Both the position numbers and the translations under genes were made by a program. From the NCBI GenBank assembly GCA_040954595.2, contig CM082584.2, forward strand, positions 3,600,110 through 3,664,109: a stretch of DNA of 64,000 bases. Direction: 5' to 3'. The number at the start of each line of letters is the position of its first letter. The stretch's first letter is position 1. The notes under the pieces are model-generated. The model saw nothing but the letters and a program-made list of their open reading frames with translations. It was not told where the DNA came from and did not search any database. Below, piece by piece: positions 6,226-63,903 of the stretch. The stretch comes from Balanoglossus misakiensis. Taxonomy: Eukaryota; Animalia; Hemichordata.

Positions 6226-9200
6226 ATGATCACTGTTCTGAATTCGCATCCCACAGATAGCCTGACACTGCAGGTCATACTCGGTGTTATCTTCATAACA
6301 CAAGCCAGAATTTCAGGTATATATATTATATTTTGTGTTTTGGGTAATATCTCGAGTTTCTCGTGTACACCGGGTGATTGCTATCACAAATATCCTACAG
6401 TGCCCTCACGCATGTAAGATTTGTATAAACAAGGCTTATACCAGTTCATGTCATGAATATCGTATAATATATAGACACAGTCAAACGTGTGTTAGTGGCC
6501 AACCTCTGTACAGTGGTCACTTTGTTAGAGTCCCTGTACAATTTACATAGGCCAAGGTTCTATGAAGACCAGTTTAGGAAGTCCCTCGACTGACCACTAT
6601 ATACAGGTTTGATTGTATTGTGTGATATTTCCATGCATCCGTGTCCGTGTATTAGCCTCGCTTTCCTTCGCGGAAGAACCAGTTGACACGATCAGAATCG
6701 AGGGCGATGACGTCAGGTTGAACTGCACCTTGGAAGGCTGGACTTCGGAACCCCTGCTGTGGTCCAAGGAGGATCCCGGCGGTTATGGAATTTCGTTTAA
6801 GGATGAAGTGTTCCTGCCAGGCCACTACCTGGTCGACGAATACGGGACGGGTGCCTACAGTCTGGGGATTGTGAATGCAACTTTCGAAAACGATGGGGTG
6901 TACACGTGTGGGGTCTTCACAGCGCCAAAGCTGACATCGTCCGCTGCTCTGTTTCTTATGGGTGAGTTGAATAAGAAATGTCATGTTCCATGAGTCTACG
7001 CTTACCTTAAGCACTCACCTCACTCACTCGCTCGCTCACCCACTCACTCACTCTGGCATCCATCCATCCATCCGTCTATCCATCCATCCATCCGTCTATT
7101 CATCTATATATTTTTGGCAATAAATGTATTGTGTATGAGTAGAGGATTTCACTTACCCCATTTGCAGATGAACTTCCTGAATGCAGTGTGGAACCCGGAT
7201 CCGTCGTCAAAGCCGGAGACAATACAACATTCAACTGTTCCATCAACAAGGCAGTGCCACCGGGTGAATTGGTTTGGCGACTGAACGGTGACCGAGTCGC
7301 TAGCGAGGGAAATTCTTTGACCCACGAATGGACGGCGTCTTTTGACCGGACGCAAAATGGCTCCATGATGGCCTGCGCGTTGGAATATTTTACCTTGTCG
7401 GAGCCCCTACCCTGCCAAAATATCTTGATGGAAGTACAATGTAAGAATATCCCCGTTTATTCGCTGGTTTCTCGTATTAGTGCGACCATGAATGAAGTCC
7501 TTTACTGCAGACTGAACCTCGGAAGAACTGGGTTCACGTTTAATGGCCAAATATTTGTTTTGATAACTTAAGTGACAAATAATCACAAAATTCCTCAAAT
7601 CGATGTGACTTTATTATTTCATGGATGTTAATACCAACCTATAAATATATAGATAGAAGACAACCTTTATGAATGTTCAACTTGTAAAATCCACATTTAG
7701 CTTTGTTTCAACAATTTCAGACGATCCATTGGTGAACATCGAAATCACCGGCGATGCTAGCTCTGACGGGAAGGTCATCCAGGGTGACTCGTTCACCGCA
7801 GAATGTGTGGTCACTGACTCCAACCCGGAACCCGACACAATCACGTGGTTTGACGATGATGGAAACGCTGTCGGATCTAACGGACACCTGATAATGCTAG
7901 AAATCGATCGCAGTCAGACAGATAGTAATTATACATGCACGGCGAGCAATGCGTTTTATGATGGCAGTCACGGAACTGGGTCGGCCGTGCTAAGTATAGA
8001 CGTGCAGTGTAAGTAGTAAGGTTATCTCTTTAAATAGCTCAGACTCCCATCTGTACAGTTATTAACGGCGATTTCCGAGTCTCTACTTGCCTGCATTTGA
8101 ACCGTCCAAAATAAATGTAATCACACGGGGTGTGTCGACACCAACATATCAAGTCGTTTGGCATAGAACGCATGCAGATTGCATGCATATTATGTGTACA
8201 CTAAGGTCAAGTGGTCGTTGGACTATTGACAAGACCACTCAGTCAGACAATACAGCAGATGATACCACAACTTGATTTTAAGATTTATGTTATTTGGATA
8301 CAAAGCTTATACTATTTATCAATATATGAGGCATGAAATTTCACCAATGCAAGAGTATATTATATGTTGCGACCAGAACAAAGGCTTAGGTAATTTTTTC
8401 TCTACTGTTTATATGTCCTCTCCTATCAAATTCCTCCATTCCTATCAGATCTGGCCACTGTCGGTATCCTTGACGAAAGTAACGGTACGGTTGTTGAAGG
8501 CGATACATACCAGGCAATCTGCGTCGCGGACGCTAACCCTATCCCAGAGTTCACCTGGATCGGTCCTGGTGACCGTGTTATCAGCAATGATGAATCACTA
8601 ACGATCCATAATGTAGAACGAAACTTCGGTGGTGCATATGTCTGTTGTGCGAACGTAACGTTCTGGGATTCGTCGGTTCAATATTCCAATACATCAATGA
8701 TGTTAAATATCCAGTGTAAGTTTAACATTAACCTAATCAATGCTTATGTTTGTCATTCACTTCATTACACAAATCAATCGGTCGGATATGAATAGAGGGA
8801 AAAGGGCTATTCAATTAGGCCGATTTACATGTTAATGCACATAAATATTTAATTTGTCACATGCAACATATGCATGTGTTCATGACAGAAACGCCACTAT
8901 TTTGAATAACACGTAGATTACATGTATAGCTCACGACGGTCGTGTACTTCGTGTTCGCTTGCAACCAATAGTTTATATGATATTAAACACGACTGGCTAG
9001 ATATGCTTGCAAACAATAATCGCGAAGTATACTGTCTTAGCAAAAATATTCTTTGTTGTATTTACCCAAGATGCACCTATTGTAATCGCAAATATAACTG
9101 GAAACGCAAACACAGACGGCAAGGTTATTGAAGGGAAATCATTCGTCGCCGAGTGCGTGGTCTTAGATAACAATCCACAGCATGACCATGTGGTTTGGAA

Positions 9201-61000: not shown

Positions 61001-63903
61001 GAAATCATAAGACAATATTATTTCCAAAGCAAGCATTACATTTCATCAGAATAACTTTCATTGACACCAGTGGAATAAGAGGGGGGGGGGGAGAAAAGTT
61101 ATTAGTGATGAAACCAAAGCAGAACTCGATGCTTCACGCCGTTGGTTTCAAATAAATTTAGGTACCAGTACAGCCTTTCGGGAGGGGACATCTCCCGAAA
61201 TAGCAATGCCCAGGATGAATGGTTCTGACGACGTTGAAATAACAAAAGAACAAACGGGCCGAGGAGTGATGATCAAATATCGTCCATAAAAGAGAATATG
61301 ATTGTTCGAGGATGTCAGTTGGGGTTGTGGTGTCATCTCGCCGCCTATACGTCATGTTCCGTGGTGGACTTCCCACAGCAAACGTCGTAATTGAAAGTAG
61401 AATACAGTAAAATGGTGAATATGATACATACTTGGCAGCACAGATTTTATGGCTACTTCTTCGGCTTTTCTGTAACGAGCGGTCTTAACGCGACCTTTAT
61501 GCACCCATCCAAACTGCCCTTGTCCAAGCAATGTGTCAGTTTGTTCAACGTCATTTCTTTGCATCATCCATTCTTTGCAATCTCCTAGGTTTTCCTTTAA
61601 GTAAAAGTAAAAACAGTATCACTGTTTTGACTCAAAAGAACCAAAAACCTTCAATCGTCGATCGGGCCTCTCTTGCCTAACTTACGTTTTCAGAAAAAGA
61701 AGATACGGTTCTTCTGATTTACTATGTCTTTGTAAAACAAGTGCGTTTCTAACACTCGATACTATTGATAATTTGCTGAAATCCTCTTCATTCTTACCTG
61801 TATAATAATCATTATTTCCGACTCTTCGTCGCCTAAGTGCTGATACTTTATGCCCTTTCTACGATTAAAAAACATGTAGGTCATCACAATAACAGCAGCA
61901 ATCAGAACACATACTGCGATGACAGTCAACGTAACATACACCTTATCTCCTTCCACTCGAGGAAACTCTGTTGGCAAAGGATTCAGAGAATGAATGAATG
62001 AATGAATGAATGAATGAATGAATGAATGAATGAATGAATGAATGAATGAATGAATGAATGAATGAATGAATGGATGGATGAATGAATGAATGAATGAATG
62101 AATGAATGAATGAATGAATGAATGAATGAATGAATGAATGAATGAACGAATGAACGAATGAACGATTGATTGATTGATTGATTGATTGATTGATTGATTG
62201 ATTGATTGATTGATTGATTGATTGATTGATTGATTGATTGATTGATTGATTCTAAGGCTATGGCCATGCCTGTATACAAAGGGCTTGATGAGGTATTCCA
62301 TAGTCATCTGTCGATATGGGAACGATTGTAGGAATAAAGGCGATACCTTGTACACACAAACAGCCACCGGTATTGTTGCACACTGCCCTTTCCCATTGGT
62401 CACACAAGCACTGTTCCTCGCAGTGTTCACCGCAGAAACCGTGCGCACACTCGCACTGCCCGGCACGAACGTCACAGGATAGGGCGCCCTCATCTCGACA
62501 CAAACACTCTTGGGAGCAATTTTTCCCAAACCAGCCATTTTGACATACTGAAATAAAACCATTCAATCGAAAACTACAGCGCTGTCTAAACACCTTTTAG
62601 ATAGATCACGAACATATTTGTTGAATTCTGCACGGGAGATATTATAGACCATCGAATTATGTTATTTGCAAAAACCACTGAAAACCACTTGCCAAAGAAA
62701 ATCGGTTTGTTTTGTGGTAAACTAACAAACATGAAATTGTTCTTCCTGATCTCTCAGCTTCCTTTCTTACCATTTAATTTAAGCACAAACTGACCTTGGT
62801 CACAATGAAGTCCTGTCCATCCCTCGTTGCAGTTGCATCCGCTGTATCGGTCACAGTCAGAGGCATATACACAATCGCACGCTTGATTACATGTATTGCC
62901 CCACCTGTTGGTTGGACAACCTGGAAAGATATTTTTAAGGACTTACGTTTATACAGTCGGAGTCGTTATTGTCGATAGCTTAACAGTATTTCCACATTTT
63001 CAAATCCCTAAAGCTGCTGCCAACGTTGACTTTATTGCTGTTTTTGATCAAAGTTTCCGCGACGGAACATACCTGCATATACAGTAAACGTAGACATCGG
63101 CAGAAAGCCACAAAAATGCCCTATATTTAATTGTAACACTATGCATAACGGGAAGCTTACAAACCACAGATCCGACATTGATAAATTAATGTGATGTCCT
63201 TACCTGATATATTTGTGTACCCTACATCAGAATACACACGGCCCGACTGATCCCGGAAACGACATTCATATTTCCCCGCGTAGCTTTCCATGTAATTCTT
63301 GACTTGAATTTGACTGTAACTGTAACACGCCATTAAAAGCATCGTTTAGGTAGAACCCGCCTCGAAAATCAAAATCTTAAAACTTTTCTAAAATTTTGTT
63401 CAATGTCATATTTCGATATATGATTAACTCATATATTAAGAATAAAGATTGGGAGTACGTACAAAATTTGTTAGAACAATTCACTCTTACGCGAATTTCA
63501 CTACTTGTCAGATTATGGTTTCGCGTTCAGAAAAGCAGCCTGCTTGGCAGACATTTTCGAGCCAACGCTTGAAAACGCTAAACGAAAGCGATTTCGATTG
63601 GGACAATTGCAATGATTGGGACCAATATCCGAATGAAAGTGGGTTTTTTAATGTTTTGAGACGAGGAATGGATATCGTGTGCTACTTAATCTATTGTCGA
63701 CACGTACCTGATCCCTTCGTCCACAAATACATGGTCATCTGTATCTGAAGAAACAGCTTCACCATCATTTATATGCCAACTAAATCCAGTCTGATTGTCG
63801 GAGACGCTGCCGATGCTCAAGTGAAATGCGCGGCAAGTTAACATAATCATTTCGCCGAAGTATCCCGACGTGTTTTTCGGTGTCACTACCACAGATCTTT
63901 CAG
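55075..63903 (-). CDS. Gene D: Tie-like receptor tyrosine kinase with Ig and EGF/laminin-type repeats, catalytically intact; 5' part probably outside window
   Basis: Split Ig domain 63903-63708 + 63313-63204. EGF exons 62920-62795 ([16 protein letters not shown]...) and 62547-62347. TM 61967-61798. Kinase exons 61594-61432 (GQGQFG, VAIK), 60768-60658, 58114-57960, 57574-57449 ([11 protein letters not shown]), 57068-56986 (PIKWMPPE), 56556-56516, 56347-56251, 55701-55605. Last exon 55137-55075. Confidence 0.9.
58190..60248 (+). mobile_element. Helentron-associated (HINE/DINE-1/pearl-like) non-autonomous element in a gene D intron
   Basis: Order of parts: tandem ~240-bp cores, then (CATA/CATC)n at 60115-60188, then a 3' stem-loop aggtcccat-ggtata..tatacc-a-atgggacct (60207-60243). 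Left boundary approximate. Confidence 0.65.
58775..59690. repeat. ~240-bp tandem repeat, about 3.8 near-identical units
   Basis: tgctctggat.ccaagatatg..aaagtagg.caaaggtca recurs at ~58777, 59017, 59257 and 59495. Confidence 0.93.
61988..62251. repeat. (GAAT)n + (GATT)n compound microsatellite
   Basis: Directly visible; intronic between the EGF and TM exons of gene D. Confidence 0.96.

What the first reader, a model, noticed from the sequence alone, without database searches (positions are those of the whole stretch)
6226..63903. Candidate paired-receptor locus: two kinase-less Ig arrays, a homologous dead-kinase receptor and an active RTK
Seen: genes A and B (+) face gene C (-). All three ectodomains follow one plan: a V domain, a 4-Cys domain, repeated domains ending NT(F/Y)WDG...DVQ, and a membrane-proximal domain with YGxY. 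A and B lack a kinase, C has a dead kinase with many Tyr motifs, and D has an intact kinase. Established: pseudokinase/active kinase pairs (ErbB3/ErbB2) and kinase-less RTK relatives (FGFRL1) signal or modulate as partners, and clustered, rapidly duplicating Ig receptors with Tyr motifs underlie invertebrate recognition (Hydractinia Alr). Inference: a lineage-specific recognition module of sensors or decoys, a scaffold and a catalytic partner. I do not recognise this combination as described, but cannot search.
Basis: partly seen in the sequence, partly recalled or inferred. Interest (0 to 1): 0.85.

Follow-up and report, generated by a model that had tools for sequence, protein, structure and literature searches.

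The report
Acorn-worm Ig receptors with dead kinase
Three neighbouring genes, likely from an acorn worm, share one immunoglobulin-chain outer design but end in a bare tail, a tyrosine tail or a conserved catalytically dead kinase with docking motifs, so they likely form a cell-recognition receptor family, while the fourth gene, an intact kinase with a different outer design, is likely only a neighbour.

Summary
A (12 Ig) and B (25 Ig) lack a kinase. C (7 Ig) has a dead kinase (HRD to HGE, DFG to NIG). D has an intact kinase.

A, B and C belong to one enteropneust family (V, 4-Cys, C2 repeats, proximal Ig) found in Ptychodera, Glandiceps and Saccoglossus. Each has its own Ptychodera counterpart, and these lie on one chromosome-scale contig. 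C's dead kinase is 62-63% identical to Ptychodera HGE/NIG receptors, so it is conserved, not decaying. Its juxtamembrane YxxL-x10-YxxL motif recurs across the family. Relatives carry ITIM+ITSM tails or live kinases on the same ectodomain.

The four-gene module is not supported. D has an unrelated Ig-EGF ectodomain, 28% kinase identity to C, and no orthologue found, so linkage is untested. C is not a strict pair of A or B (V domains 28% identical), and no allelic hypervariability was seen in one other sample.

Best reading: a Siglec/Alr-like recognition family whose activating arm is an ITAM-like pseudokinase, likely phosphorylated by another kinase. The scan noted a similar pair on other DNA of this genome (e1-10585863). 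My paper searches found no description.

The parts
6226..13981 (+). Gene A: signal peptide 6226-6316, V 6656-6961, 4-Cys Ig 7168-7440, nine C2-type repeats 7721-12769, proximal Ig 13057-13362, TM exon 13615-13742 (GC donor), last exon 13967-13981; 20-aa tail without Tyr
   Evidence: domain-by-domain match to P. flava P0091/P0092/P0006, 49-70%; tail matches P0091 in length and ending
17458..34698 (+). Gene B: signal peptide 17458-17506, V 18100-18408, 4-Cys Ig 18773-19048, 22 repeats 19263-32169, proximal Ig 32432-32743, TM 32907-33014, tail exons 33768-33786, 33907-33992, 34217-34263, 34546-34698; about 113-aa tail with tyrosines but no ITIM/ITSM
   Evidence: 55% identical over 1774 aa to P. 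flava P0090; tail exons are my prediction, no homologue found
37440..49216 (-). Gene C: signal peptide 49216-49162, V 48297-47989, 4-Cys Ig 47656-47387, four repeats 46722-43922, proximal Ig 43312-43013 (second Cys lost), TM 42170-42079, pseudokinase 40190-37772, last exon 37517-37440
   Evidence: kinase 62-63% identical to P. flava P0093 and P0095
39968..41071 (-). C juxtamembrane docking region: two duplicated 63-nt exons each with a YxxL, then YxxL and YxxL in the next exon; the second and third form YxxL-x10-YxxL across a phase-0 intron
38889..39005 (-). C catalytic-loop exon: HGE for HRD, Ser for the loop Asn, NIG for DFG, no Tyr in the activation loop
50060..50329 (-). Decayed V-type exon of the same family upstream of C (frameshift, second Cys missing)
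   Evidence: V profile 32 bits
55601..63903 (-). Gene D (5' end off the window): Ig in two exons, EGF-like exons 62920-62795 and 62547-62347, TM 61967-61798, intact tyrosine kinase 61594-55601; likely an unrelated neighbour

Best explanation
Genes A, B and C are three members of one acorn-worm-type immunoglobulin receptor family that share an outer chain of domains but end in a bare tail (A), a tyrosine tail (B) or a conserved dead kinase preceded by paired YxxL motifs (C), and they likely work as cell-surface recognition receptors in which C would signal as a docking scaffold rather than as an enzyme. Inferred steps: (1) The N-terminal V domains bind V domains or other ligands on a facing cell through their C-C'-F-G face, and the long, acidic, sequon-rich repeat chain acts as a spacer. 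(2) Clustering lets another kinase (a Src-family kinase or a live kinase of the same family) phosphorylate C's juxtamembrane YxxL pairs, which recruit tandem-SH2 proteins of the Syk/Shark type. (3) A acts as an adhesion or decoy form, and ITIM+ITSM members elsewhere in the family act as the brake. D, an Ig-EGF receptor kinase, is likely only a neighbour.
For: Family: the 9 best hits of the repeat profile are Ptychodera or Glandiceps proteins. All 44 window Ig domains have their best match, within the set of fetched proteins, in a named hemichordate protein. The V, 4-Cys, repeats plan occurs in Ptychodera, Glandiceps and Saccoglossus. Dead kinase kept: C groups with P. flava HGE/NIG receptors at 100/99 and with HGD/NFG receptors at 99/98; kinase identity is 62-63% against 44-51% for C's best-matched Ig domains C3-C7. 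Docking motif: YxxL/I-x8-11-YxxL/I in 10 of 13 family or related kinase receptors, against 0 of 25 other HRD receptor kinases (the 25 include isoforms and six VEGFRs). Four YxxL in C's 114-aa juxtamembrane region were reached by 0 of 20000 shuffles. Opposing tails: ITIM+ITSM in 3 of 13 kinase-less tails. Live kinase on the same ectodomain type: Glandiceps P0104, HRD/DFG; all nine family kinases form one group in a second tree, SH 83. Predicted V-V homodimer of the A-type P. flava protein P0092: score 0.49, best of 3 controls 0.26, runs agree in at least 95% of contacts, pLDDT at least 89. The mark was reached by 7 of 16 animal homodimers and 0 of 30 eukaryote monomers, and the pass may come from likeness to solved Ig dimers. 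That face is the most variable part of seven A/B-type V domains, 4.33 against 2.82 residues per column.
Against: No expression, binding or phosphorylation data exist here, and all gene models are predictions. C's spacer of 10 falls outside the ITAM consensus of 6-9 given in PMC9546547, and three family kinases lack the motif (P0095, P0201, P0108). C's V domain is only 28% identical to A's and B's, so a shared ligand is not implied. Neither A nor B has an ITIM. The A/P0091 pair shows no extra change at the predicted face, 9 of 15 against 30 of 51. The grouping of all family kinases is weak in one tree and unresolved in the other. A clade of C plus D is not rejected, p-AU 0.18, because D is a long branch. 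No live same-family kinase was shown in this genome. Nothing here separates an immune role from a developmental or neural one.
Confidence: 0.55

Rival explanations
1. The family is a developmental or neural adhesion code rather than an immune system. V-domain pairing sorts cells, as DIP/Dpr, nectins or nephrin/kirrel do, and C acts like the Ig pseudokinase co-receptors PTK7/Off-track (families recalled, not tested).
For: V domains are well kept between species, 63-65% to their P. flava counterparts, and domain order is colinear. A predicted symmetric V-V dimer. The repeat folds like OPCML, CD146, CEACAM5 and DIP domains, Z 11.2-12.1. Little allelic change in the other sample.
Against: ITIM+ITSM tails and ITAM-like pairs on one ectodomain family, several copies per type, a decayed V exon and head swapping resemble immune receptor clusters.
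Confidence: 0.28
2. The first reader's module: D is the catalytic partner of C, as ErbB2 is for ErbB3, and A and B are decoys or sensors for the pair.
For: D lies about 6.4 kb upstream of C on the same strand and has every catalytic motif. C has many tyrosines and none in its activation loop. A C+D clade is not rejected.
Against: D's Ig scores 8 bits or less on the family profiles and its kinase is 28% identical to C's. D's kinase is at most 36% identical to anything fetched, has an intron that C lacks in the subdomain IX region, and has no ITAM-like pair. The family supplies its own live kinase in Glandiceps.
Confidence: 0.1
3. C is a decaying copy of a once-active receptor kinase inside a turnover-prone Ig gene cluster, with no role of its own.
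For: A decayed V exon lies next to it. Among the exonic differences shown for the other sample, 7 of 12 change an amino acid (only 40 of 285 rows were displayed).
Against: The frame is open over 20 exons. The same HGE, NIG, YxxL pair and C-terminal tail are kept in P. flava at 62-63% kinase identity.
Confidence: 0.05

Closest known systems
Hydractinia Alr family (PMC9546547, passages read)
   Same: Clustered invertebrate Ig receptors with a V-set tip and diverse tails bearing ITAMs or ITIMs, proposed to signal through Syk/Shark and SHP/SHIP.
   Different: Alr proteins have two or three Ig domains plus an Fn3-like spacer, and no kinase-bearing member appears in the passages read. Here there are 7-25 Ig domains, no Fn3 in A-C, a kinase or pseudokinase on some members, and no allelic hypervariability seen.
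Vertebrate paired receptors and Siglecs (PMC3533184, passages; PMC5701461, abstract)
   Same: One ectodomain family in a gene cluster with inhibitory (ITIM+ITSM) and activating-type tails; V plus C2 chain; signs of exon exchange between members.
   Different: The activating arm here carries its own tyrosine motifs and a dead kinase rather than a charged TM residue and an adaptor. A/B and C are far less alike than true pairs. No Siglec-type Arg follows the F-strand (definition recalled).
Receptor pseudokinases ErbB3, PTK7/Off-track, STYK1 (recalled; STYK1 context from PMC4898815 passages)
   Same: Single-pass receptor with a catalytically dead tyrosine kinase fold kept by selection and tyrosine docking sites.
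   Different: C's kinase is of the FGFR-like group by its relative P0093 and arose within an acorn-worm family that also has kinase-less and live members. The neighbouring active kinase D is not of its family.
Amphioxus IgVJ-C2 (PDB 5xpw; PMC7916673 passages)
   Same: Best structural match of the repeat, Z 13.6, rmsd 1.1 over 80 residues; a V-domain homodimer is reported for it.
   Different: Only 20% sequence identity, so this is a shared fold; orthology was not tested.
FGFRL1 (recalled)
   Same: Kinase-less Ig receptor related to kinase-bearing ones.
   Different: FGFRL1 has three Ig domains and binds FGF. A and B have 12 and 25 Ig domains of another type.

Membership tests
Receptor tyrosine pseudokinase (gene C) | Loss of the catalytic Asp (HRD) and the Mg-binding Asp (DFG) in an intact kinase fold behind a TM segment | tested here: met
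   HGE, NIG and loop Asn to Ser; Gly loop, VAVK and alphaC Glu kept
Receptor tyrosine pseudokinase (gene C) | No measurable kinase activity | not testable with these tools
   needs an enzyme assay
Active receptor tyrosine kinase (gene D) | Gly loop, VAIK Lys, alphaC Glu, HRD, DFG, activation-loop Tyr | tested here: met
ErbB2/ErbB3-type pair (C with D) | Active and dead partners are paralogues with the same ectodomain type | tested here: not met
   Ig-EGF against V-C2 chain; 28% kinase identity
ErbB2/ErbB3-type pair (C with D) | Conserved linkage, co-expression or physical contact | tested here: inconclusive
   no D orthologue found; no genome held; no RNA holder listed
Paired immune receptors (A/B with C) | Very similar ligand-binding ectodomains | tested here: not met
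   V 28%, domain 2 37-41%, proximal domain 28-32%. P. flava P0093, a dead kinase with an A/B-type head, is closer at 44-45% V
Paired immune receptors (A/B with C) | An ITIM-bearing inhibitory member | tested here: not met
   none in A or B; met by relatives P0004, P0007, P0013
Paired immune receptors (A/B with C) | Activating member with a charged TM residue | tested here: not met
   no Lys or Arg in the TM segments of A-D
Paired immune receptors (A/B with C) | Gene cluster | tested here: met
   three genes in 43 kb here; P. flava and Glandiceps members share one contig each
Canonical ITAM | Yxx[I/L]-x(6-9)-Yxx[L/I] (PMC9546547) | tested here: not met
   C has a spacer of 10; relatives P0244 and P0104 (9) and P0100 (8) meet it
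Hydractinia Alr | V-set, I-set and Fn3-like extracellular spacer | tested here: not met
   A-C ectodomains are fully covered by Ig exons
Hydractinia Alr | Extreme allelic polymorphism of the distal domains | tested here: inconclusive
   one other sample only: 2 differences in 834 nt over the 5' part of B's V exon; 17 in 2266 nt over C's V exon
Siglec | Essential Arg on the F strand and the atypical V-domain disulfide (recalled) | tested here: not met
   A, B and C V domains have a canonical F-strand Cys and no following Arg (alignment)
STYK1/NOK | Kinase-domain clade with vertebrate STYK1 | not tested
   no STYK1 sequence was returned by any search

The most novel reading that the evidence does not exclude
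Acorn worms have their own self/non-self receptor system in which V-domain heads with a variable binding face are shuffled onto four kinds of base: bare tail, ITIM+ITSM tail, ITAM-like tail with a live kinase, and ITAM-like tail with a dead kinase. The dead kinases would be receptor tyrosine kinases turned into ITAM scaffolds, an alternative to the adaptor-based activating receptors of vertebrates.
Probability: 0.3. Interest if true: 0.8.

Novelty: new variant of a known kind. Interest (0 to 1): 0.55.

Why it matters
Hemichordates sit next to echinoderms at the base of the deuterostomes, and my searches found no description of an Ig-based activating/inhibitory receptor family for them. A family that combines bare, ITIM, live-kinase and dead-kinase tails on one ectodomain gives named, clonable genes to ask whether balanced ITAM/ITIM recognition predates chordates, and how a receptor kinase becomes a pure scaffold. 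Databases scatter its members under labels such as hemicentin-like, CD22-like and FGFR-like, which hides that they are one family.

Tried and rejected
No genome is held for this window, so synteny and a genome-wide Ig tree could not be run. No RNA holder was listed; this is no evidence on expression. A word-based search with one C kinase exon found nothing among 7 candidates; the full HMMER search then found the relatives. A search with D's HRD/DFG exon gave 2 unnamed fragments among 660 candidates, neither a clear orthologue; this is weak evidence because the query was 42 aa. Aligning D's kinase exons to a scaffold failed and was not used. A single-sequence fold of P0095 failed, pLDDT 32, and was not used. 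The PDB search with C's catalytic exon was uninformative. A STYK1/NOK link was a recalled lead that I could not test. Look-ups of earlier findings by sequence and relatives gave nothing. Paper searches combining hemichordate terms with kinase, Ig, ITAM/ITIM or pseudokinase terms listed no description of this family: searches gave 0 papers; some searches listed 1, 2 and 2 unrelated papers; one search listed 15 of 96, none holding the word hemichordate. I saw only listings and abstract starts for these. Subscription journals are mostly missing and no supplements were read, so a mention in a genome paper's supplement is possible. The signal-peptide-like ORF at 53608-53507 was rejected as C's first exon (phase 0; a phase-1 exon at 49216-49162 fits).
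Full report
OBSERVATION. The window is animal DNA with short introns. Splice-site scans and translation give four models; none has RNA support. A (+, 6226-13981, 1186 aa) has a signal peptide, V, a 4-Cys Ig, nine repeats, a proximal Ig, TM and a 20-aa tail with no tyrosine. B (+, 17458-34698, 2411 aa) has the same plan with 22 repeats and a tail of about 113 aa with tyrosines but no ITIM or ITSM. 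C (-, 49216-37440, 1098 aa) has four repeats, a proximal Ig that has lost its second Cys, TM, a 114-aa juxtamembrane region and a kinase fold with HGE for HRD and NIG for DFG. D (-, 63903-55601, 5' end off the window) has an Ig, EGF-like exons, TM and a kinase with all catalytic motifs. Pfam confirms 13 of 13 tested A/B/C Ig exons and 5 of 5 tested kinase exons; D's Ig ORF and the decayed V exon scored nothing. The 35 repeat exons align with three invariant and six near-invariant columns and fold as a C2/I-type Ig domain, pLDDT 92.5, best match amphioxus IgVJ-C2 at Z 13.6, then OPCML, CD146, CEACAM5 and CD22 at Z 11.4-12.1.

WHAT FAMILY IT IS. The repeat profile's nine best hits are Ptychodera flava and Glandiceps talaboti proteins, so the window is likely an acorn worm other than P. 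flava. All 44 window Ig domains have their best match, among the proteins fetched, in a named hemichordate protein; the best unlisted protein usually scores about half as much (the exception is P0221, a family-type protein whose source I did not look up). A matches P0091/P0092/P0006, B matches P0090/P0001 (55% over 1774 aa), and C matches P0009/P0095/P0094/P0093. Domain order is colinear for the first domains of A and B. The V, 4-Cys, repeats plan also appears in Saccoglossus P0244. The A-, B- and C-type P. flava proteins P0091, P0090, P0009 and P0095 all carry the same longest-contig length, 50,649,872, and five Glandiceps members share one of 26,684,518. So A, B and C are old paralogues of a family that spans three enteropneust genera, not a fresh triplication.

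THE DEAD KINASE IS KEPT. HMMER over 1.84 billion representatives put P0093, P0009, P0094, P0095, P0096 and P0097 first; five of these were looked up or already named as P. flava, and P0097 was named. Those whose models include the catalytic exon show HGE/NIG (P0093, P0009, P0095, P0097) or HGD/NFG (P0096). C's kinase is 63% and 62% identical to P0093 and P0095, more than its best-matched Ig domains C3-C7 (44-51%). In a 50-row tree C joins the HGE/NIG group at 100/99, the HGD/NFG group at 99/98, and Saccoglossus P0244 (HSE/RIG) at 94/84 (four redundant VEGFR rows and two Acanthaster isoforms were left out). The closest solved kinases to P0093 are mostly FGFRs. By established kinase chemistry, loss of both aspartates and the loop Asn abolishes catalysis; the kept Lys, Glu and Gly loop may still bind nucleotide (inference).

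TAILS. C has four YxxL in its juxtamembrane region (0 of 20000 shuffles reach four) and a YxxL-x10-YxxL pair (shuffle frequency 0.013 for any spacer of 6-12). A pair with spacer 8-11 is present in 10 of 13 family or related kinase receptors and absent from P0095, P0201, P0108 and from D; P0246's model lacks an ectodomain, so its membership is unproven. It is in 0 of 25 other HRD receptor kinases with a usable juxtamembrane region, a set that includes isoforms and six VEGFRs. C's spacer misses the 6-9 consensus quoted in PMC9546547 (passages), so I call it ITAM-like. Of 13 kinase-less tails, three (Glandiceps P0004, P0007; P. flava P0013) have ITIM plus ITSM; A and B do not. Glandiceps P0104 has the family's last two domain types and an intact HRD/DFG kinase; P0100 has HSD/DFG and P0108 HRN/DFG. 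In a 24-row tree all nine family kinases form one group, SH 83, not starred; the larger tree left this open.

HEADS AND BASES ARE EXCHANGED. C's proximal domain groups with those of the P. flava dead kinases (96) apart from A's and B's. C's V domain is only 28% identical to A's and B's, which are 49% identical to each other. P0093 carries an A/B-type head (V 44-45%, domain 2 53-58%) on a C-type base, and P0009's fourth domain is 88% identical to a B-type repeat, either a real exon exchange or a chimeric gene model. In the window, B15 and B18 are a recent duplicate (85% nucleotide identity), as are C's two YxxL mini-exons. So C is not a strict pair of A or B, though the family does contain closer head-sharing pairs.

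V DOMAIN. ESMFold2 supports a symmetric V-V dimer of P. flava P0092 residues 30-225: 0.49 against 0.26 for the best of 3 controls, contacts agreeing at 95% or more, pLDDT at least 89. The mark was reached by 7 of 16 animal homodimers and 0 of 30 eukaryote monomers, and by only 1 of 7 without an older solved relative, so the pass may reflect likeness to known Ig dimers. It is a relative, not the window's own protein. The 15 interface positions vary more among seven A/B-type V domains than polar positions elsewhere (4.33 against 2.82 residues per column). B against P0090 keeps 5 of 15 against 32 of 51 (p 0.04), but A against P0091 shows no such excess (the pairs are not independent). Whole V domains are 63-65% identical to their P. 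flava counterparts. In the one other sample, B's V exon 5' part and C's V exon differ by about 1% or less. Extra contigs over B's first two Ig exons run into intron sequence absent from the window, pointing to another B-like gene; 3 of its 5 displayed amino-acid differences in V fall on the predicted face (p 0.018, 40 of 91 rows displayed). This is a hint only.

GENE D. Its Ig scores 8 bits or less on the family profiles, its kinase is 28% identical to C's and at most 36% to any fetched protein, and its EGF exon resembles SCARF1-type repeats weakly. It is a long branch; a C+D clade is neither found nor rejected (p-AU 0.18). No orthologue was found, so linkage is untested. Nothing but proximity ties D to C.

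MECHANISM. Shown: one ectodomain family, three tail types in the window, five across species, a conserved dead kinase, conserved YxxL pairs. Inferred: V-face binding across cells, phosphorylation of C by a Src-family or same-family live kinase, Syk/Shark recruitment, A as decoy or adhesion form, ITIM members as brake (0.55). Rivals: a developmental adhesion code (0.28), the D-C pair (0.10), decay (0.05).

COMPARISON AND NOVELTY. It works like Alr and like vertebrate paired receptors, but fails membership of both, and of Siglecs (see the membership rows). ErbB3, PTK7/Off-track, FGFRL1, DIP/Dpr and the Siglec arginine are recalled, not read here. Papers seen: PMC9546547, PMC4898815, PMC7916673 and PMC3533184 as passages, PMC5701461 as abstract and outline. 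Searches listed no description of the family; the library lacks most subscription journals and I read no supplements. The proteins exist in RefSeq under scattered automatic names. The scan already noted a similar pair on other DNA of this genome; that note is unreviewed and is not independent support.

VERDICT. A real and apparently undescribed acorn-worm receptor family with an ITAM-like pseudokinase arm: a new variant of a known kind, interest 0.55. The specific four-gene module with D is unsupported.

Noticed in passing
window 50060-50329 (-): Frameshifted V exon of the same family upstream of C's signal-peptide exon; likely a relic of a lost member.
   Followed up: partly
window 53507-53608 (-): Signal-peptide-like ORF with a strong donor in phase 0 between D and C; it fits neither gene's model.
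   Followed up: partly
window 13742-13967 (+): Predicted GC-AG intron in gene A; using it gives a tail that matches P. flava P0091 in length and ending.
   Followed up: partly
window 43013-43312 (-): C's membrane-proximal Ig has Ser in place of the second Cys, as in P. flava P0009, P0094 and P0095, while P0093 keeps the Cys.
   Followed up: partly
window 37440-37517 (-): C's last exon is conserved with P0093, P0095 and P0009, with two tyrosines and two cysteines; C and P0093 end in Cys.
   Followed up: partly
window 26928-27214 and 28275-28561 (+): Recent exon duplication in B (85% nucleotide identity) with a long identical middle stretch.
   Followed up: partly
window 34546-34698 (+): B's last exon has a twice-repeated unit of about 16 residues, each with one tyrosine; no homologue found.
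   Followed up: partly
window 58776-59694: 239-bp tandem repeat, 3.8 copies, 94% matches, in an intron of D.
   Followed up: no
window 40156-43475, 45468-46795, 52772-54099: Very high contig depth in the laid runs marks high-copy repeats in C's introns and between C and D.
   Followed up: no
P0120, P0175 (Acanthaster, Patiria): Starfish Ig-Fn3 receptor kinases form a separate well-supported kinase group with intact motifs; they do not share the family repeat.
   Followed up: partly
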